Assembly: GCA_038087875.1 (NCBI GenBank) | Contig: CM075990.1 | Location: forward strand, 8,310,001-8,374,000 | Direction of reading: 5' to 3' | Length of the DNA stretch: 64,000 nt | From: Malacoraja senta | Taxonomy: Eukaryota | Shown here: positions 380 through 61,167 of the stretch, one piece after another | How positions within the stretch are numbered: position 1 is the stretch's first letter | Layout: each line of letters begins with the position of its first letter | Translations under genes and position numbers: made by a program | Notes under the pieces: model-generated | What the model saw: only the letters and a program-made list of their open reading frames with translations | Databases searched by the model: none | What the model was told of the DNA's origin: nothing

Positions 380-563
380 AGTCTGAAGAGGGGTCTCGAT
401 CCGAAACGTTGCCTATTTCCTTCGCTCCATAAGTCTGAAGAAGGGTCTCGACCCAAAATGTTGCCTATTTCCTTCGCTCTATAGATGCTGCCTCAGCCGC
501 TAAGTTTCTCCAGCATTTTTGTCTACCTTCGATTTTCCAGCATCTGCAGTTCCTTCTTAAACA
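380..563 (+). mobile_element. Penelope-like pLTR with tandem 52-bp hammerhead-motif duplication and ~35-nt tail
   Basis: Units 380-431 and 432-483, then gatgctgcctcagccgct...ccagcatctgcagttccttcttaaaca. Confidence 0.85.
383..410 (+). ncRNA. Minimal type I hammerhead ribozyme motif
   Basis: CTGAAGA-G-GGGT(CTCG)ATCC-GAAACGTT. Confidence 0.65.
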
Positions 564-1172: not shown

Positions 1173-1602
1173 CTGGCCTATATTCGTTGGAGTTTAGAAG
1201 AATGAGGGGGGACCCCATTGAAACGTATGGCGTAGTGAAAGGCTTGGACAGAGTGGATGTGGAGACGATGTTTCCACTCGTGGGAGAGTCTAGGACTAGA
1301 GGTCATAGCCTCAGAATTAAAGGACGTTCCTTTAGGAAGGAGATGAGGAGGAATTTATTTTGTCCGAGGGTGGTGAATCTGTGGAATTCTTTGCCACTGA
1401 AGGCTGTGGAGGCAAAGTCAGTGGATATATTTAAGGCAGAGATAGATAGATTCTTGATTAATATAGGTGTCAGAGGTTATGGGGAGAAGGCAGGAGAATG
1501 GGGTTAAGATAAGAGGGAGAGATAGATCAGCCATGATTGAATGGCGGAGTAGATTTGATGGGCCAAATGGCCTAATCCTACTCCTATTACTTATGACCTT
1601 AT
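1173..1602 (+). mobile_element. CR1 LINE 3' fragment
   Basis: LYSLEFRRMRGD...TRGHSLRIKG...RVVNLWNSLP ORF2 C-terminus plus 3' UTR, homologous to the 12962-14698 ORF. Confidence 0.9.
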
Positions 1603-1667
1603 ATATACACACATACAGATATACTGAGCTTATTTGTTATTAATTATGGTGTTTATGGTGTCTTGTT

Positions 1668-1917
1668 ATGGTGTCTTGTAGCGGCTCGTACGAATAAAAA
1701 GTAAAAATAATTTTCATCACAGGTATTTTTTTTACTCGTGGACATTTTTTACATGGATGAAAAACGTCACGAGTTTACCGGATGTCCCGAGTACCTACCG
1801 TTAGCATTACGAGCCGCTACGAGACATCCACAAACTCCTACCGACCCGCTACGGACATTCTCCGAGTTCGAATCAGGGGAGAACTCGTGAATTACCTCGT
1901 ACAGTGGGACAGCGCCT
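1668..1917. mobile_element. One-ended MITE of the agggcctgtcccact-TIR family
   Basis: Ends agtgggacagcgcct|taa; internal sequence resembles 28700-29007. Confidence 0.75.
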
Positions 1918-2064
1918 TAAAGTCTTTCCACAATGCCCTCCACATCAGTCTTGCAAATTCTTGCAGAATGTATGTGTAATTTCTGTACAGGTTACGTATA
2001 ATTTTGTGTGTTTGAATCAATGTGCCTGTGATGCTGTTGCAAGCATGATTTTCATTGTACCTCA

Positions 2065-2309
2065 GGGCAGCATGGTGGTGCCGTGGTAGAGTTGCTGCCT
2101 TACAGCGCTTACAGCGGCAGCGATCCGAGTTCTACGGGTGCAGTCTGTACGGAGTTTGTACGTTCTCCCCGTGCCCGTTGGGTTTTCTCTGAGATCTTTG
2201 GTTTCCTCCAACACTCCAAAGACCTACAGGTTTGCAGGTTAATCGGGTTGGACGCGGTGGGCCGAAGGGCCTGTTTCCGCGCTGTATCTCTAAACTAAAC
2301 TAAACTAAA
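2065..2309 (+). mobile_element. HE1-type tRNA-derived SINE (internally deleted)
   Basis: tRNA-like head, gtttgtacgttctccccgtg core, gggcctgtttccgcgctgtatctc(taaac)n tail. Confidence 0.85.
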
Positions 2310-3140
2310 GACTTTACTTGAGTGTTTCAGATTGCGGAATCGAATTGAGCATTCCAGATTTCACAACAGCAAACGGTTCCAGGGAAGAGCTTGCTTTTCC
2401 ACAATGTTTCAGGACTCCCAACGCATGTCACTGCTGCTGAAGTCTAGATTCTGTTGTAGTGTAGGACTAATGCTACTGGGATAACCGCATCTCATGATTT
2501 ACAACACTGCCTGCTGTTCTGCTGGGTTTGTCACTTGATGTACTTCTCCATGTTGGCCCATAATTAATCCCATTCCAATACATGGTCCCTGCCCACTTGT
2601 TACGGCTCCGTCAGTCTGATCTTGAAAAGTCCAATATATTGCAGCTCACATCAAAAAGTTAACACAATGTAGTTGTATCCTTTTGACCATTGTTTGAAGT
2701 GCTCCCTTGTGAAGCATTTACGAGATTGTTAATAATGAGCGTGTGTTTATATCATGTTCTCATTAATTTCTGCTTTTGAACTCAGCTTGTTCTTGTGTTT
2801 CAAGACAACCTCTGATTAATTCTGCTCATTCGCTATTGCGCTTGTTCCTTCCTGATAAGTCATATTTTATTCATCAGTACTTTTCTCACGTCTTCTCCGC
2901 AGAGGGGTCAACCATGTTCTTTGAGAGGTGAGAAAGTAGAGTCCAAGACCTATTTAGTAGGGAAGCATTGAATTCTGAGAACAGAATGACTCAAGGGGAG
3001 AAGTGAAGAATAAATAATATGAAATCCCTGCTGTTAAAACGTGATATTTGGTCTTCTTTGTTGGGCTGTTTTTGAAATTTTTACAAAATACACTTTTTGT
3101 CATTGTAAATTTCTTCTATGAACATGGTGAAATAATATTT

Positions 3141-3865
3141 GTGCAGGAAGGAACTGCAGAGCTGGTTTACATTTAAGATAGCCACATAAGGCTTGGATAG
3201 AGTGGATGTTTCCATTAATGGGAGTAGCACGAGAGATCATAGCCTCAGAATTAAAGGACATTCTTTAAGGAAGGAGATGAGGAGGAATTTCGTTAGACGG
3301 AGGGCAGTGAATCTGTGGAATTATTTGCCAGAAAAGGCTGTGGAGGCCAAGTCAGTGGATATTTTTAAGGCAGAGAGATAGATTCTTGATTAGTACGGGT
3401 GTCAGAGATTATGGGGAGAAGGCAGGAGAATGGGGTTAGTAGTGAAAGATAGATCCGCCATGATTGAATGGCGGAGTAGACTTGATGGGCCGATTGGCCT
3501 AATTCTGCTCCTATCACTTATGATCTTATGAAAATGCTGTAGTAACTCAGTGGAACAGGCAGCATCTCTAGATAGAAGGAATGGATGATGTTTCGGTTTG
3601 AGACCCTTCATCAGACCGAGTCAGGGGAGAGGGAGAAACAGAGATAAAGTATGTAAGGTGTGAAAATGAGACATCAAAGGGGACGAGGTCCAAGGAAAAT
3701 GTAGAATAGATCATTGTTAGTTAGGGGAAGGTGACAATGAAGCACACAGATTGAAAAATGTAACCCTGGGGGGCGGTGAGACTGGTCGGAGGACTAGGAT
3801 GGTGGAGGGATGGAGAGAGAGGGGAAGCAAGGGTTACTTGATGTTAGAGGAGTCGATATTCATAG
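3141..3865 (-). mobile_element. Penelope-like 3' end (GIY-YIG terminus MNIDSSNIK*, 3' UTR, degenerate hammerhead, tail)
   Basis: Reverse strand reads atgaatatcgactcctctaacatcaagtaa and ctgatgaagggtctcaaaccgaaacatc; 10-bp TSD aataatattt at 3131-3140 and 3866-3875. Confidence 0.85.
3189..3530 (+). mobile_element. CR1 3' fragment nested in the Penelope pLTR
   Basis: HSLRIKG...VNLWNYLP plus 3' UTR; the pLTR resumes at 3531. Confidence 0.9.
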
Positions 3866-3909
3866 AATAATATTTATTTTTTGGAAAAGTCAGCTTTTAT
3901 TATGCATCC

Positions 3910-4270
3910 TTGCTTACCCTTCAGAAGGTAGTGGTGGTGAGGCAACATCTTGAACCATTGCAGCACATGTGGAGAAGAAGGTTCACCCTGCAGTGCTGTT
4001 GGTGTGAGCCTCGGAGATTTTGATCCAGTGACAATGAAGGGATGCTGATTAATTTCCTCATCAGGACAGAGGGAACGTTACAGGAGATGGTGTTTGTGCC
4101 AACCTGCTGTTTTCATGGGGAGGGGGCTCGAGGTAGTGGGGGTTGGGAGGTGCCAAGGCTTGGGGATTTGTGCAGAGGCCCACCGCAGTCACAGCGGGGT
4201 AATGTACCACCACTGCTTTCTGCCATGCCGTGCCTCTTCCATAGCCATTCTCATTTCACCTTGTGTTTTG
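3910..4270. repeat. Old interspersed repeat, probably LINE-derived
   Basis: Degenerate similarity to 59985-60717 (ccct..agaag.tggt..tga...cttcttgaacc...cagtgctgttgg). Confidence 0.45.
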
Positions 4271-5149
4271 AAGGTGCTTCTGACAGGCAAGTATGCAGAG
4301 GCTAGAGGTCCTAACTTTGCGAGGAATGTATTCTGTTACATTCCTGCCTTGCAATGTGTGTAAAATCTCACCAAGGGACACCCAACCCCTCACCTTTACT
4401 TTGAACCATTATATTTCAGATCCATGTCGACCCCTGGGATGTTAAAGGGGAGATTAGATAGTTGTATTTGTACGAAGCATCAAAGTGAAGTGGCTAACTC
4501 GATTTTGCATGGCACGTGTGACACGTATTACATGACACACATGGCATGCATTACACAACACATATGGCTTGGCAATGAGCTTTGCTGGATGGAAGCAAAG
4601 GTTGGAGTTGTGCATAGTCAATATCATTATGCAATGAACAGTGAGGCTCCCCACCTCTGATCTTATGATGGGGGGGGGGAAGTGCAATTAGTGAAGCAAC
4701 TCAGAATGTTGGGCCCTTGAATGTCCTGCGGCACTCCAAACAGGGATTCATTTTCATCGTGCCAACCTCTCCACACTCCCCCTTGAGGACAATCTGCCGG
4801 CTCTTTTCTTCCTCGAAGCTCAACTATTTCCCCTCGCCGCCACTCACTTTCACCCGACCAAGCAAGTTCTCACGTGGAACAACCTCTTTAGAGCCGCAGA
4901 ATTCCTCCAAACAAACTCTGAAGCCCGTGGAGCCAGTATGGGTCCAAATGAAGTCTGGATGTTTGTGGCATGTGTGGAACATTCCTTGAATCATATTTAA
5001 CATTCATATATGATGTGGGAGGAAACTATTCAGACCATTGTCAATTTCATATCTTGGAACTATCCCATTCACCCCCATCTTTCCCTGTAGCTCATTCTCT
5101 CATGCCAGCCCATTCCTGTAATATTTTTCATCTACCTACACAAGAGGTA

Positions 5150-5309
5150 TAGTTTAGTTTCGAGATACAGCGCGGAAACAGGCCCTTCTGCCCACTGGGT
5201 CCTTGCCGACCAGTGATCCCCACATATCAACACTATCCCACGCACACTAGGGACAATATTTTACATTTACCAAGCCAATTTACCTACATATCTGATCGTC
5301 TTTGGAGTG
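5150..5309 (-). mobile_element. HE1-type SINE 3' half
   Basis: tagtttagtttcgagatacagcgcggaaacaggccc... Confidence 0.85.
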
Positions 5310-5542
5310 GTAATGAATAGTGGCGACCAGCCTGCCAGCTGGCATGCCTGTGCGATGGGTTAAATAACTTTGTCTTTGTGTTCATCTCATCCTATTTATA
5401 TCTCCCCTGACTTCACCTCTCTCTGTCACTCTTCCCCAATCGCCTTTTTTTCCCCCACCAAAACTCTACTGCGTTCCACCTTATCACAGACCTCCTTGCT
5501 TTGCACCACGGAACATGGTTTAATGCTAGCAATCTGAAGAAG

Positions 5543-7229
5543 CAGGGGCGGTGTGGTGTGGGACATACCCCCCAAGTTTTTGTGCTCCGGATTTTAAAAT
5601 CTCCGCTTTCCGCGAGACAGTTGGGGCGGGACTGATGATCGAGGGCGCTGATTGGACGAGAGAGACGTCGGTCAGCAGGCAATGGGGGCGGGACATGATT
5701 CAGCGCGATGATTGGAGGAGGGAGACATGGCACAGACCTGCGCATCATCCGCAGGCAGGATCGATCCCGGCCGGGTCTCCGGCGCTGTCCCGTCCCCACC
5801 CGAGTACCCCCCCCCCAAGGGTGGCCAGAGGTCGGCAGCAAAGATCTTCCGCTATAGGATCTTTGGTCGGCAGTCAGACGGGCCAGCGCAGAGAAGCAGC
5901 GCTAAACCTAGGTATGTTACAATACTTACCTTCAGCGGTGCTGCAATTCTGCCACTGGCCGTGTGCGCGATTTTGGCGCTTTTAAGGGGGGGGGGGCGGG
6001 GTTAAAATGCGGGTTTCTCGTACCTTGTCCTGAATTATATTTCGTTGGAGTGCAAGCGTTTGCTGAAAAATCGTTCCGACCGGCGTTTTGTGTATTTTTT
6101 ATTTTTATTCGATCGACAATTTCAGCGCTGGAGTCATTTTAAAATCAGCTTCGAAAGCCGTCAACGCCGACAACGGGGACGGATTTCACACACGGGACAG
6201 GTAAACAAAAGCAGTATATTTTTCATAATAAAAGTGCTTCTTAAGAAGCCTTTAATTCACATTTTTTAATGCGAAACGGTAATTCTTTTCCCCGAACTAA
6301 CGGCAGAAATTTTCATGCCGATACGGGGTTAAATTCACTGCAAATCAATGTTCCAATTGATCGCATTCCAGAAAAACCCACTCGCAAGATGATTTAAATG
6401 CCCATTAATTTACAGGTATTAAACATTAAATTCCTTCCATTTGGCCTGTAAATCCATGACAATGAGATTTAAAATTTATGTTATATTGTGAATTCTTGTG
6501 TGAATGTTATTTGGACACAGGCTATTTAAAAATGTTAATCTATTCTTAAGAAATTGATAGATGTTTAGATCTAGTAATTGAATTTTGTAATTAGCTACAA
6601 TTAGGTAACTAACTAATTATATGCTTTAATTTCATGTCTTCTAAGTAAGATTGTTTCATATTTGTTTCAGAATGCTTCAATCTATAATAACTGAAAATTT
6701 CTTTCAGTTCTCTTAATTTTTAAGAAAGTTATGGGCTTTTGACTGTCCTCGATCACAGCTTTTGTGTTAAGTCAATGGAAAAGCAATAGGGAACAAGATG
6801 CTAATTTCCGAGTATGAAAATGGCCATACCTTTTTTAATACTGAAGATATGAAAGTGAATTAGGTGTCAAATTAAACTTCTTTTTATGCTTTATCTGATG
6901 GGATAAATTACAGACTTTATTTTTAAAATCTCAAAATTTTGTAACATTGCTACTAAACCCAGCTAACTCCGCCTGTCCCGCCAGGTGAGCTTACAACCCT
7001 TCCTGGACTTGCGGGAAATATGGCCAGCGCGGAGAAGCAGCGCTGGTGTCCCGTCAGTCCAGGCAGGGCTGTAGTTAACCCAATGAGACAGGCAGTTGAG
7101 CTGCATTTGGCGCTGGATTGAGCCTCCGAAGCCTCGCGCGCGTGTGTGTGTGAGTGCGCATGCGCGCGTGGCCGCCAAAAAATTGTGTCCCCCGTCCCCT
7201 CCATGTTTTGATAGCAATTTCCGCTCTTG
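5543..7229. mobile_element. Non-autonomous hAT-like DNA transposon
   Basis: Termini caggggcgg / ccgctcttg; perfect 8-bp TSD tgaagaag (5535-5542, 7230-7237); CpG-rich. Confidence 0.8.
5909..6952. mobile_element. Second hAT-like element nested in the first
   Basis: TIR taggtatgttacaa / ttgtaacattgcta (12/14); direct repeat ctaaacc at 5902-5908 and 6953-6959. Confidence 0.75.
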
Positions 7230-12376: not shown

Positions 12377-12547
12377 TAGACACAAATAGCTGGAGTAACT
12401 CAGCAGGTCAGTCAGCATCTCTGGAGAAAAGGCATACATGATGTTTCGGGACTCGACCCTTTTCTCCAGAGATACTGTCTGACCAGCTGAGTTACTCCAT
12501 CTTTTTGTGTCTATCTTCGGTTTAGACCAACACCTGCAGTTCCTTCC
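12377..12547. mobile_element. Palindromic Penelope-derived element
   Basis: tagacacaaa..ggagtaactcagc / gctgagttactcc..tttgtgtcta inverted arms plus tail. Confidence 0.8.
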
Positions 12548-20827: not shown

Positions 20828-21510
20828 TGCATTTGGAGTTTTGTGTTCGGATTTGATCCCACTGCTACATAGGAAAGATGCTGTTAAGCTGGAAAGAGTG
20901 CATAGAAGATTTACAAGGATGTTGCCAGTTCTCGAGGCTCAGACTTTATTCCTTGGAGCACAGGAGGCTGAGGGCCTTAGTGCTTGTAGATCTTATAGGT
21001 GTATATAATTATGAGGAGAATAGATCGTGTGAATGTACAGAGTTGTTTTTTACCCGGAGTAAGGAAATTGCAAACCCGAGGACATGGGTTTAAGGTGAGA
21101 GGGGAAAGATTTAACAGGGCAACGTTTTCCACACCGAGGTTGGTAGGTGGACACAAAATGCTGGAGTAACTCAGCGGGGAGGCAACATCTCTGGAGAGAA
21201 GGAATGGGCCCGTTCCTTCTCTCCAGAGATGCTTCCTCACCCGCGAAGTTACTCCAGCATTTTGTGTCTACCTTCGATTTAAAACAGCATCTGCAGTTCT
21301 TTCTTACACAGAGGTTGGAAGGTATATGGAACGAGCTACCAGAGGAGGTAGTTGAGGCAGGAACTATAATAACATTTCAAAGATATTTGGACAGGATAGG
21401 ATAGGTTTAGAGGGCGATTGGCCAAATGCAGGTAAGTGGGACTAGCAGAGGTGATGCATTTTGGTTAACATGGGCTAGTTGGGCCGTGCTGCAAGACTCT
21501 ATGATTCTAC
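20828..21510 (+). mobile_element. CR1 3' fragment
   Basis: LYSLEHRRLR, GIWNELPEEVVEAG, 3' UTR ending gactctatgattcta. Confidence 0.8.
21149..21305. mobile_element. Palindromic Penelope-derived element nested in CR1
   Basis: ~60-bp inverted arms; flanks acaccgaggttggtaggt / acacagaggttggaaggt. Confidence 0.85.
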
Positions 21511-26765: not shown

Positions 26766-26840
26766 TTGTGAAGGCTGGGGAAGGATGGACTTCCTCTCTT
26801 TAAGGCAATCGTGAGCCAAATGAATTCCTACAGCAAATGG

Positions 26841-26998
26841 AGAAAAGGAATAAGTGACGTTTCGGGTCGAGACCCTTCTTCTTGATCCGAAACGTCATCT
26901 ATTCCTTTTCTCCAGAGATGCTGTCAGAGCCACTGAGTTGCTCCAGCTTTTTTCGCCTATCTTCTGTTTAAACCAGCATCCGTAGTTCCTTCATACAC
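26841..26998. mobile_element. Penelope-derived element with short inverted arm
   Basis: gacgtttcgggtc...gatccgaaacgtc; imperfect TSD attcctacagcaaatgg / attcctacgataaatgg. Confidence 0.8.
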
Positions 26999-42217: not shown

Positions 42218-42382
42218 CTAGACACAAAATGCTGGAATAACTCAGCGGGACAGGCAGCATCTCTAGAGACCAGAAACGCCTCCCATTCCTTCTCTCCAGA
42301 GATGCTGCCTGTCCCGCTGAGTTACTCCAGCATTTTGTGTCTATCTTCGATTTAAACCAGCATCTGCAGTTGTTTCCTGCTC
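42218..42382. mobile_element. Palindromic Penelope-derived element
   Basis: Inverted arms plus tail; flanks aaattaaactg / aaattaaattg. Confidence 0.85.
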
Positions 42383-50847: not shown

Positions 50848-51189
50848 CTCCCCCTCCCATTCCGAATCTGACCTTTCTGTCCTGGGCCTCCTCCATGGCC
50901 AGAGTGAGGACCACCGTAAATTGGAGGAGCAGCACCCCATATTTCGCTTGGGCAGTTTGCACCCCAGTGGTATGAACATTGACTTCTCTAATTTCAGGTA
51001 GTCCCTGCTTTCTCCTCCCCTTCTCAGCTCTCCCCCAGCCCACTGTCTCTGCCTCTTCCTTTCTTCTTCCCGCCCGCCCCCCCCCACCCTCACATCAGTC
51101 TGAAGAAGGGTCTCGACCCAAAATGTTGCCTATTTCCTTCGCTCCATAGATGCTGCCTCACCCACTGAGTTTCTCCAGCATTTTTGTCT
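50848..51189 (+). mobile_element. Penelope-like 3' end: GIY-YIG C-terminus, 3' UTR, hammerhead pLTR
   Basis: SHSESDLSVLGL..RKLEEQHPIFRLGSLHPSGMNIDFSNFR*; accaccaa on both sides. Confidence 0.9.
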
Positions 51190-51429
51190 ACCACCAAGTT
51201 TGTGTAATCTGTAAACTTATTAATCATACCAAACTGTATTCACATATAAATCATCGATATATCCACCACACAATAAGTTTCTATTCACACATTCCTTTCA
51301 GCACAACTACTCAAGAACTCCCTGTCTTAAAAACAACCCTCCACCATCTCTCTCTGCTTCCTTTTACCAATCCAATTTGGGATCTAATTTGCCAATTTGG
51401 CCTGGATTGCAAAATATCTAATCTTCTGG

Positions 51430-51856
51430 GTCGGTCCTCCGGTCGGTCCGCAATAACTAACCTGACCTCCCGGTGGCTCAGCACTTCAACTCCCCCTCCC
51501 ATTCCGTATCTGACCTCTCTGTCCTGGGTCTCCTCCATGGCCACAGCGAGCCCCAACACCGGAAATTGGAGGAAATGCACCTCATATTCCGCTTGGGCAG
51601 TCTACATCCTCGGGGCTTGAACATTGAATTCTGCCAATTCTGCTAGCCCTTGCTATCCCCTCCCCTTCATCAGCCCACTGGTTGTCTCCTCCCCTCCTCC
51701 AGCCCTCGGGCTCCTCCTCCGCCTTTTTTCCTTTTTTCCTTTCTTCTCCCCACCCCCTATCAGTCTGAAGAAGGGTTTCGGCCCGAAACGTTGCCTATTT
51801 CCTTCGCTCCATAGATGCTGCTGCACCCGCTGAGTTTCTCCAGCATTTTTGTGTAC
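51430..51856 (+). mobile_element. Penelope-like 3' end, second subfamily
   Basis: LPVAQHFNSPSH..RKLEEMHLIFRLGSLHPRGLNIEF; perfect 15-bp TSD tatctaatcttctgg (51415-51429, 51857-51871). Confidence 0.92.
51765..51792 (+). ncRNA. Minimal type I hammerhead ribozyme motif (intact)
   Basis: CTGAAGA-A-GGGT(TTCG)GCCC-GAAACGTT. Confidence 0.75.
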
Positions 51857-57147: not shown

Positions 57148-57555
57148 CAGAATTGAAGGATGTTCTTTTAGGAAGGCGATGAGGAGAAATTTCTTTACTC
57201 AGAGGCTGGTTAAACTGTGGCATTCTTTGCCACAGCAGGCTGTGGAGGCCAAGTCAGTGGATATTTTTAAGGCAGAGATAGATAGATTCTTATTAGTGCG
57301 GGTGCCAGGGGTTATGGGGAGAAGGCAGGAGAATGGGGTTAGGAGGGAGAGATAGATCAGCCACGATCGAATGGTGGAGTAGACTTAGTGTTAAAGAAGG
57401 AACTGCAGATGCTGGGGTCTGAAGAAGGGTTTTGGCCCGAAACGTTACCTATTTCCTTCGCTCCATAGATGCTGCTGCACCCGCTGAGTTTCTCCAGCAT
57501 TTTTGTGTACCGGTGGAGTAGACTTGATGGGCCAAATGTGCTAATTGTGCTATTT
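57148..57555 (+). mobile_element. CR1 3' fragment
   Basis: Matches 1173-1602; interrupted at 57387-57511. Confidence 0.88.
57387..57511 (+). mobile_element. 125-bp hammerhead mini-element
   Basis: Perfect 14-bp TSD ggtggagtagactt (57373-57386, 57512-57525); motif at 57419-57446. Confidence 0.9.
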
Positions 57556-59428: not shown

Positions 59429-60241
59429 ATATTCTCACAAGGACGTTGATATGTCACAGATCTCCGTTCAACTCCGTCCCTCCTCAACATGCAAGGAATA
59501 CTGACACCCTTCGTAGAGACCCCATGTTGTGGCTGCAGGCAGAATTGATCACCTCAACACTAATAGCACCTTTGCCCAGTAACATATCGGATGGTTAACT
59601 TGCTATCAGAGACGAAGCATATATCGGTATTTTGCTTTGTCTTCCTAGGTTGAGTTGATATTAGCCAAAGGGTTTGTGTTCAACGGACCAGTAGTATTGT
59701 CCTTGTGTGTCGCTACCCATTTAAAATAAGCATCCATTGTACAAATTCTTTCTGCATCTGAATACTTCTGATGAACTTTCCTTCTAATTTCTTGTATAAA
59801 ATTCCTATGGTTGCTTTTTTTTTGCCTCCAATGGTGAAGGGGATAAATAACGTTTTGCAACCACACAGTTTTCTTTTGCCTTCGTGCTCTGTTACTGAAA
59901 ACAAATGACACGTCAGTTCATACAAGACTCTGAACTGCCTTTCCAATGGACTTTTCACGTTGTGGTATAATTTGTCTGTTGTTCATTGCCCCTGAGAAGA
60001 TGGCAGTGAACTGACTTCTTGAACCTTACTCTGAAGATTCTCCTTCAGTGCTGTTGGATAAGGGATTCTAAAATATAACTCCAGTGAACAATGATGGACC
60101 AGCAATATAGTTCTAAAGCAGAAGAATAGGTGACTTAGAGGGAAACAAAAACAGTAATGTTCTAGCCTTTGCATTTCTAAGTGTCAGAGATGACAAGTTT
60201 GGGCAGTGCTATCAAAGTAGCCCAAGTGAATATGTGCAATG

Positions 60242-60333
60242 GTACACAAAAATGCTGGAGAAACTCAGCGGGTGCAGCAGCATCTATGGAGCGAAGGAAA
60301 TAGGTAACGTTTCGGGCCGAAACCCTTCTTCAG
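60242..60333 (-). mobile_element. 92-bp hammerhead mini-element
   Basis: TSD atatgtgcaatg (60230-60241, 60334-60345); starts exactly at CTGAAGA. Confidence 0.9.
60306..60333 (-). ncRNA. Minimal type I hammerhead ribozyme motif (intact core)
   Basis: Reverse strand CTGAAGA-A-GGGT(TTCG)GCCC-GAAACGTT. Confidence 0.7.
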
Positions 60334-60727
60334 ATATGTGCAATGATGTTCTTTGTAGACGACACATCTTGTAAACGAGAAGTGGAGTGAATGAATGAAG
60401 TAGCAGTCAAGGAATGTCAGCTTTCTATGGTGTTATGGTCATTAACTTCTACTAAGCCAGTATATCTACAGGCCAGTGGATAGTGTTCTTTTACAATCTT
60501 CATCTTTGTAGATGGTTGAAAGTCTCTGGGGTGTAAAGAGGTGAATCACTTGTCACAGAATACACTTGCAGTATTTATGTGGCTGATACACAGATTTTCT
60601 AGTCAGTTGGGTACCCTTGGAGATTATTGTGGCTAATGATGTGATGTGGTGCTATTGAATACCAAGGGAATGTGGTCTCTTCCCTGATGCAGATTGTCAA
60701 TGGCATGAATGTTACATGGTGCTAATA

Positions 60728-61167
60728 GTAGTAGTACGCCCCCCTCGATCATGACTGACCATGGGTGATGCATCCTGGTCGGATGCAAGCCTGGGCGATG
60801 TCAAATGGAGGACAGGCTGTTGCCCATGCAGCACGTCCCGCCTCTCCACGTCACTGATCGATCCAAAGGAACAGCAGGGCCATTACAGTTTGGCACCAGC
60901 GCCGTCGCAAGAGCTGCCAGAGCGAGGTTGTAGACAACGACTACAAGTAGGGGCTCCGACTCCGGATTTTCTTGAGGTTTACTCCTGGAGCCTTTTCCAT
61001 GACTGGATATGGCCACAAGGCAGTGGAGGTTTTAAATCAGAGTTTTCCCCCTCCTAGATGGACTGCCTTCCCATGCTGACGAGTCCCATCTGCCCGAGAC
61101 TCGTGGGGGTGGGAGCGTCTACCTTCCCATGCAGGTCTATAGCACCTGCCCACTGCCCAGAACTTTA
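60728..61167 (-). mobile_element. 440-bp non-coding retroposon, probably RTE-derived
   Basis: 10-bp TSD ggtgctaata (60718-60727, 61168-61177); (cta)n tail; RTE-like leader ggcagtccatctaggag..ggaaaactctgattt. Confidence 0.65.

What the first reader, a model, noticed from the sequence alone, without database searches (positions are those of the whole stretch)
60230..60345. 92-bp TSD-flanked unit consisting only of a hammerhead core plus a 3' stem-loop
Seen: a 12-bp direct repeat atatgtgcaatg brackets an insert that begins exactly at CTGAAGA and ends at ...catttttgtgtac. The 3' part can fold as atgctg...cagcat with an inner gag-ttt-ctc hairpin (gag-tta-ctc in the other subfamily). Inference: a minimal retrozyme/SINE-like unit mobilised by PLE RT and GIY-YIG, or a recurrent 5'-truncation point at the ribozyme structure.
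Basis: partly seen in the sequence, partly recalled or inferred. Interest (0 to 1): 0.72.

Follow-up and report, generated by a model that had tools for sequence, protein, structure and literature searches.

The report
Penelope stub ending at fixed boundary
This 92-base insert is one of thousands of short stubs of a Penelope-type jumping gene that all start at the front edge of its small ribozyme motif, and they are likely dead copies of the front of the element's own RNA, not a new self-spreading element, though their regular ends give a way to test how these elements copy themselves.

Summary
Observation confirmed: a 92-bp insert (minus strand) with an exact 12-bp target duplication. It is the pLTR end of a young, intact Penelope-like element (PLE; RT plus GIY-YIG). 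The 5' boundary is real: of 99 copies anchored on the 3' end, 55 start at -6..+13 of CTGAAGA and only 3 in the next 124 nt. It is not a SINE or retrozyme lineage: no variant tested stayed confined to short copies, tail frequency equals that of long copies (16/55 vs 9/31), and the unit has one incomplete ribozyme. It is not a plain stall either: full-length copies meeting the same sequence a second time stop there in 0 of 20 junctions. In head-to-head inserts, 59 of 62 have exactly one tailed arm, and arms are mostly both short or both long. Best reading (0.55): twin priming at two fixed sites near the front of a linear PLE RNA, then run-off at its 5' end; long copies come from circular or multimeric RNA. 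No RNA 5' end could be observed. The scan found this boundary before in several other fish, shark and skate genomes.

The parts
60230..60241 (.). Target-site duplication, copy at the element's 3' end
60334..60345 (.). Target-site duplication, copy at the element's 5' end
60242..60333 (-). 92-bp PLE pLTR stub (+1..+92), tail-less, ending at the first of two fixed 3' end sites
   Evidence: its first 70 nt occur exactly 5,526 times and its last 40 nt 21,202 times
60306..60333 (-). Minimal type I hammerhead core: CUGAAGA, extra A, helix II GGGU-UUCG-GCCC (60325-60314), GAAA, palindromic CG in place of helix III, predicted cut after GUU between 60306 and 60305; helix I is one pair here and two pairs in long copies
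   Evidence: read from sequence against the min-HHR description in PMC4209133; not detected by Rfam; cleavage untested
60252..60283 (-). Predicted 3' stem-loop ATGCTG...CAGCAT with inner GAG-TTT-CTC; not more stable than shuffles
57373..57525 (+). Sister insert: 14-bp duplication, inverted tail-only stub (57387-57418), then a short copy (57419-57510) starting at -2
51765..51856 (+). Same 92 nt in a long-class copy that continues upstream into the native pyrimidine tract
51100..51191 (+). Older-subfamily copy, long class
383..526 (+). Older-subfamily short copy with tail whose first 49 nt are duplicated; both starts at about -3

Best explanation
The insert is a target-duplicated, 92-bp stub of the pLTR of a young Penelope-like retrotransposon, likely made when the element's reverse transcriptase primed near the front of a linear element RNA and ran off that RNA's 5' end. 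Shown: thousands of copies share two fixed 3' ends (+92 and about +130, the tail) and a 5' boundary at about -1 to -4; head-to-head inserts carry the tail on exactly one arm; copies that pass the boundary never stop at it the second time. Inferred: (1) the enzyme nicks both target strands about 14 bp apart and primes one strand at +92 and the other at +130 on one RNA; one success gives a direct stub, two give an inverted pair; (2) short copies come from a linear RNA that would start 2-4 nt before CUGAAGA, at an initiator-like TCAGTC in the pLTR promoter; (3) long copies come from RNA with no end there, circular or multimeric; (4) a tail-less stub such as this one lacks the upstream pLTR and the downstream ORF-start sequence and would be dead on arrival.
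For: 5' ends of 99 copies anchored only on their 3' 40 nt: 31 at -6..-1, 24 at +1..+13, 3 at -130..-7, 28 beyond, 13 at +14..+53. Genome-wide exact counts with one 26-nt anchor, by first non-native upstream base: -1 1,439; -2 3,128; -3 2,028; -4 1,085; -5 907; native to -8 or more 7,089. Full elements have a 3,918-bp period, a 1,224-aa frame with RT and GIY-YIG and the 92 nt plus tail directly before the ORF. Second passage: 0 of 20 pLTR-ORF junctions of full-length copies end at the boundary, against 55 of 86 on first passage (P about 1e-9). Inverted pairs: 59 of 62 unambiguous pairs have one tailed and one tail-less arm; in 19 of 59 the tail-less arm is the longer by 10 nt or more and 5 tailed arms are tail-only stubs stopping near +93, so in these neither arm can be a fold-back copy of the other. 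Of 27 listed pairs with an arm beyond -30, 22 have both arms long (two loci are listed twice). About 11 of 173 short copies carry a re-copied piece of the first bases ending again at the boundary (13 listed, two of them other structures). Short and long copies share variants and tail frequency. Two internal RT start sites that define the tail, cutting and extension of both strands, and need for the first 172 nt of the ORF were shown in vitro for the Anolis PLE (PMC11167929); Penelope's start site lies in the pLTR (PMC2377424). The older subfamily shows the same boundary by eye.
Against: No RNA 5' end was seen: only contig-level runs were available. The cap-G signature expected from a capped start is inconclusive: G was 4 of 10 bases next to the templated part in clean junctions; G excess at -3 (47 of 100 listed, counted by eye) is partly due to re-copied GAAGGG pieces, and at -4 it is modest (38 of 100, by eye). 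Ends are spread over -4..+13, not at one base. A simple promoter model predicts that some full-length copies end at the boundary, and none did, which forces the added assumption of a second, end-less template; circles were not observed. In Drosophila Penelope the start site is 46 nt before an intron whose 3' end abuts the hammerhead (PMC2377424, PMC4209133), so the same CAG|T may be a splice acceptor and not a start. The +29 variant differs in frequency between classes (A in 18/55 short vs 17/31 long, P 0.067) and the +35 variant was 6/55 vs 0/31. The initiator consensus is recalled and short.
Confidence: 0.55

Rival explanations
1. The boundary is set by the ribonucleoprotein, not by an RNA end: the PLE protein bound at the priming region clamps the RNA at the 5' edge of the hammerhead, like a telomerase template boundary, and only some events switch to processive copying.
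For: Explains first-passage-only stopping (0 of 20), concordance of the two arms and re-copying of the first bases with one template class. The Anolis hammerhead folds and cuts only with the protein present (PMC11167929). PLE RTs are telomerase-related (PMC8557442 abstract).
Against: No direct evidence of such a clamp; the boundary falls on an initiator-like motif kept in young and old subfamilies; in vitro 5' truncations of the Anolis template changed product length, which shows run-off on those templates.
Confidence: 0.22
2. The boundary is a 3' splice site (pyrimidine tract, CAG|T): splicing factors or a spliced RNA with a very short first exon define where copying ends.
For: A long pyrimidine tract and CAG precede the core. 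The Drosophila Penelope intron ends at the hammerhead's helix I (PMC4209133).
Against: No recurrent upstream exon in 167 short-type copies; the one tested donor-acceptor junction has 0 genomic copies; target duplications abut the core or leave only templated bases in 23 of 58 clean cases; it does not explain second-passage read-through.
Confidence: 0.08
3. The 92-bp unit is an independent non-autonomous family (SINE-like or monomeric retrozyme) that is transcribed from short masters and mobilised in trans.
For: Roughly half of young copies are short (8,587 vs 7,089 in anchored counts); clean duplications; the +35 variant leans to short copies; ORF-less tandem derivatives exist in this genome (L181, L182).
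Against: The two candidate short-only variants also occur in long copies (7 of 30 copies with the +89 variant are long, and one carries the +35 variant); tail frequency is the same in both classes, whereas most short masters lack a tail; 5' ends are ragged; one ribozyme with a 1-2 bp helix I and no partner, whose cut would split the unit; a T5 run precedes the 3' end, which would stop polymerase III (recalled).
Confidence: 0.07
4. Ordinary 5' truncation, or a sequence-intrinsic stall of RT at the hammerhead fold or the C-rich tract.
For: PLE insertions are known to be heavily 5'-truncated (PMC8557442); some inverted junctions sit at the helix II palindrome around +11.
Against: About 43-fold higher end rate in -6..+13 than in the next 124 nt; ends lie beyond the fold and before the C run; 0 of 20 stops on second passage.
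Confidence: 0.03

Closest known systems
Endonuclease-positive Penelope-like elements, Neptune/Nematis type (pLTR, partial tandems, inverted 5'-truncated copy, one-sided 30-40 bp tail; PMC8557442, PMC3846280)
   Same: RT plus C-terminal GIY-YIG, DKG motif and a cysteine motif in the linker; partial tandems; inverted 5' copies; 38-nt tail; target duplications; minimal hammerhead in the pLTR.
   Different: The passages read describe 5' truncation as variable and the tail as optional or often one-sided; here most copies end in one 20-nt zone, only on first passage, and the one-tail rule is nearly strict (59 of 62).
Poseidon element of Anolis carolinensis (PMC11167929)
   Same: Two adjacent internal RT start sites bounding the tail, just downstream of the hammerhead; both strands cut and extended; hammerhead cleavage not needed and no ends at the cut site.
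   Different: There the ORF starts inside the hammerhead and no strand difference in start site was seen in vitro; here the ORF starts after the tail and genomic pairs assign one site to each strand. A 5' boundary is not described in the two parts read.
Non-LTR retrozymes of animals (PMC7229834; bioRxiv 10.64898/2026.07.22.740005)
   Same: ORF-less, type I hammerhead, derived from PLE pLTRs, larger target duplications.
   Different: Retrozymes are tandem repeats with at least two hammerheads that release a monomer or circle; this is a solo unit with one minimal core at its very 5' end. The 384-bp array L182 fits that definition better.
Twin priming of LINE-1 and minus-strand strong-stop DNA of retroviruses (both recalled, no call)
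   Same: Two target-primed arms joined head to head; a short cDNA that would end at the RNA's 5' end.
   Different: Priming sites are fixed internal positions, arms can overlap completely, and there is no poly(A) tail or tRNA primer.

Membership tests
EN+ Penelope-like element (fragment of) | Partner ORF with RT and C-terminal GIY-YIG | tested here: met
   Pfam RVT_1 E 4.6e-6 and GIY-YIG E 7e-4, both just under curated cut-offs; 1,224-aa frame
EN+ Penelope-like element (fragment of) | pLTR from partial tandem; inverted 5' copies; 30-40 bp tail | tested here: met
EN+ Penelope-like element (fragment of) | Minimal type I hammerhead in the pLTR | tested here: met
   core, extra A, helix II and palindromic CG read from sequence against PMC4209133; helix II keeps pairing as U-G in young and U-A in old copies; Rfam does not detect it
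Neptune clade | Zn-finger-like motif between RT and EN; RT phylogeny | tested here: inconclusive
   cysteine motif visible in the linker, which PMC8557442 gives for Neptune and Nematis; no tree was built
Non-LTR retrozyme | Tandem units with at least two hammerheads | tested here: not met
   solo unit between duplications; short copies are solo or inverted pairs
Non-LTR retrozyme | Self-cleavage and circular monomer RNA | not testable with these tools
   no raw RNA reads offered
SINE-like independent lineage | Diagnostic variants confined to short copies | tested here: not met
   +29, +35 and +89 variants all occur in long copies; +35 leans short (6/55 vs 0/31); not tested genome-wide
SINE-like independent lineage | Fixed 5' end and own internal promoter | tested here: inconclusive
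   ends spread over -4..+13; promoter activity not testable

The most novel reading that the evidence does not exclude
PLEs copy themselves by obligatory two-site twin priming on one RNA, and the fate of each event is set by the template: a linear messenger gives a roughly 95-135 bp strong-stop-like stub, whereas a hammerhead-made circle (or release from a telomerase-like template boundary) gives long and tandem copies. The ribozyme would then be the switch between a dead-end and a productive template.
Probability: 0.3. Interest if true: 0.7.

Novelty: new variant of a known kind. Interest (0 to 1): 0.4.

Why it matters
The insert itself is an ordinary dead retrotransposon fragment. The pattern across copies bears on an open question, the PLE replication cycle: why tails are one-sided, how partial tandems form and what the hammerhead does. 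The first-passage-only boundary and the one-tail rule give quantitative predictions that the published in vitro PLE assay and cap or circle sequencing can test directly. It also suggests that many solo minimal hammerheads counted in vertebrate genomes are by-products of PLE insertion and not retrozyme monomers.

Tried and rejected
DNA-similarity search of the own genome returned nothing because common words are skipped; exact patterns were used instead. Rfam found no hammerhead. Spliced or back-spliced template through the donor-like site before the ATG: 0 copies; no recurrent upstream exon in 167 short-type copies. Ends at the predicted ribozyme cut: 4 of 99, no peak. Cap-G test inconclusive. 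Apparent short-only haplotypes came from a long set biased to the youngest subfamily and a classifier that missed other upstream variants; they dissolved. Self-priming fold-back (proposed in PMC3846280) was rejected for the 19 pairs whose tail-less arm is longer, but is not excluded for the 36 pairs with equal arms. Sequencing runs: no RNA holder listed; contigs of guessed-RNA runs cannot show starts. Empty-site test: no contig joined the two flanks in four DNA-type runs; one run holds a contig running from the left flank into the insert, and it may be the source sample. The 3' hairpin alone is not significant; a core-tail pairing reached z -2.1 in one fold but z -0.77 in the longer context, so nothing is built on it. 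No tree and no homologue search were run for the clade. The host species was not identified.

Full report
Observation. The sequence is as described, on the minus strand: a 12-bp duplication at 60230-60241 and 60334-60345 around 92 bp from CTGAAGA to GTGTAC. Numbering below: +1 is the C of CTGAAGA (60333), -1 the base before it. One base at each end is shared between target and element, so the insert is 92-94 bp. The window holds 27 BLAST matches to the unit, among them a short sister with an inverted tail stub (57373-57525) and copies that continue upstream into a pyrimidine tract (51765, 51100). The proposed hairpin is the minimum-energy fold but not better than shuffles. Rfam finds nothing; the hammerhead is read by eye against the minimal motif of PMC4209133.

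What it belongs to. The last 40 nt occur exactly 21,202 times in the 1.94-Gb assembly. Long copies lead into an ORF with RT and GIY-YIG (both Pfam hits just under cut-off). A full element (L188) has the layout core, 38-nt tail, 1,224-aa frame, pyrimidine tract, core again 3,918 bp later. This is a canonical endonuclease-positive PLE; the linker cysteine motif suggests Neptune or Nematis (PMC8557442, passages), not tested by a tree.

Where copies start. I took 99 of the first 100 listed places of the 3' anchor (first 9.1 Mb of contig C1; the hundredth, L183, was fetched later, left out of the histogram, and is an inverted pair ending at +11) and aligned them to one natural copy. 5' ends: 28 beyond -130, 3 in -130..-7, 31 in -6..-1, 24 in +1..+13, 3 in +14..+28, 10 in +29..+53. 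That is 0.034 ends per nt in the boundary zone against 0.0008 just upstream. Only 4 end near the predicted cut. Positions are uncertain by a few bases because of microhomology. Genome-wide exact counts with a 26-nt anchor agree: first non-native base at -2, -3, -4, -5, -6 gives classes of 1,439, 3,128, 2,028, 1,085 and 907 copies, against 7,089 native to -8 or more. Not counted: copies starting at +1 or later, at -6 or -7, or with a changed anchor. About 9 of the 150 loci inspected in the short classes were long copies with a point change or another upstream variant, and the -5 class is mostly inverted pairs (by eye). Older-subfamily bystander copies show the same pile-up by eye (38 copies). 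3' ends fall at +92 to +96 or at about +124 to +132.

Is it a SINE or retrozyme? A first comparison suggested short-only variants, but the long set was biased. Of 30 copies picked on the +89 variant, 7 are long, one with the +35 variant. In the 99-copy sample the +29 variant is shared (P 0.067 for a frequency difference), +35 is 6/55 vs 0/31, and tails occur in 16/55 short and 9/31 long copies, two of the latter running on into the ORF. Equal tail frequency suggests that both classes were copied from RNA holding the intact pLTR-ORF junction, not from tail-less stubs. Retrozymes are defined by tandem units with two ribozymes (PMC7229834, passages; bioRxiv 10.64898/2026.07.22.740005, parts 1-3 of 5); this is a solo unit whose helix I is one pair here and two in long copies, with U at the cut position (a weak triplet, recalled).

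Is it a stall? I fetched 40 of the 150 listed ORF hits, chosen mostly for long open frames, plus L188. Twenty pLTR-ORF junctions reach +1 from downstream (19 if L343 and L344 are one insertion); all 20 run on into native upstream sequence. Three copies ended before the zone (+73, +124, +153) and one lay at a contig edge. With a stop rate of about 0.64 per passage the chance is about 1e-9. The same sequence therefore stops copying only in the first passage or only on one class of template.

Inverted pairs. Among 66 head-to-head pairs in all loci (a set enriched for short copies by my searches), 62 are unambiguous and 59 have one tailed and one tail-less arm; the two double-tailed cases are internal tandems (P below 1e-14 under independent choice). 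The tail-less arm is longer by 10 nt or more in 19, the tailed arm in 4, and 36 are within 9 nt; five tailed arms are stubs that stop near +93. In the 19, neither arm contains the other, which excludes the self-priming fold-back proposed in PMC3846280 (passages) for these cases and fits two primers on one RNA, the downstream one sometimes blocked where the upstream one began. Of 27 listed pairs with a long arm 22 are long on both sides (two loci listed twice), 3 have a tail-side stub and 2 are other structures, so length class looks like a property of the event.

Mechanism. In vitro, the Anolis PLE cuts and extends both strands, starts RT at two internal sites that bound the tail, needs ORF sequence downstream of them and does not need ribozyme cleavage (PMC11167929, parts 1-2 of 4). 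Penelope's start site lies in the pLTR (PMC2377424, passages). Here those sites are 92 and 130 nt from an initiator-like TCAGTC (consensus recalled). I infer that priming on a linear RNA starting there gives run-off stubs, and that long copies come from RNA without that end: circles made by the two ribozymes, as proposed in PMC4209133 (parts 1-2 of 4), or read-through multimers. Re-copied first bases in about 11 of 173 short copies fit a polymerase that reached an end and jumped. Perfect arrays with element ends (L182, 384 bp, 11 identical periods, 11-bp duplication; L181, 138 bp) fit rolling-circle copying but also later expansion.

Against this reading. No RNA end was observed. The cap-G test is inconclusive. 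The model needs two template classes. A protein-set, first-passage boundary explains the same genomic data and stays at 0.22. The CAG|T could be a splice acceptor as in Drosophila, but no spliced copy was found. No empty site was found.

Literature and novelty. Eight searches returned no paper whose listing or read passages describe a 5' end cluster at the hammerhead edge, a first-passage rule or twin priming for PLEs; the library lacks most subscription papers, and no supplements were read (Fig. S2 of PMC11167929 plots genomic coverage and may show the boundary). One-sided tails and inverted copies are known qualitatively. After I had recorded my reading, the scan's notes showed seven reports of the same boundary in other genomes; they are unchecked and not counted as evidence.

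Verdict. Real feature; dead stub of a known kind of element; not a new SINE or retrozyme. The regularities are a useful handle on PLE replication. Interest 0.40.

Noticed in passing
L182 (G000:C1:28901000-28909000), about 1218-6230, minus strand: About 13 head-to-tail 384-bp units (129 nt upstream pLTR, intact core, tail, ORF start to +263), 11 full periods identical, whole array flanked by an 11-bp duplication and ending at the +92 site: a retrozyme-like non-autonomous array.
   Followed up: partly
L181 1311-2850 (G000:C1:27816000-27820500): Eleven 138-bp units, 10 periods identical, whose junction joins the base after the predicted hammerhead cut (+29) to the ORF's ATG; ends at the tail site; no duplication found. 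A 4-base microhomology beside the junction makes the match to the cut site ambiguous.
   Followed up: partly
L188 2575-2660: The tail can pair with the core (AGAUGCUG with CAGCAUCU; z -2.1), and in the longer RNA the tail's end can pair with the catalytic strand (z -0.77 overall), a possible ribozyme-off fold.
   Followed up: partly
L066 and L067, several places: Short tandem units of an older subfamily that begin at GAAACG (+21) and lack the first half of the ribozyme.
   Followed up: no
L188 about 3160-4150: The ORF has a long proline-rich insert with a 78-bp repeat of variable copy number among full-length elements (frames of 1,185-1,302 aa).
   Followed up: no
window 12380-12510, 21151-21271, 26837-26953, 42222-42340: Older-subfamily head-to-head pairs in the window.
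   Followed up: no
L226, L247: Long copies of an intermediate subfamily with AAG instead of CAG before the core, which keeps the AG but weakens the initiator match.
   Followed up: no
window 60720-60800: Another high-copy repeat begins about 390 bp from the insert (depth jump).
   Followed up: no
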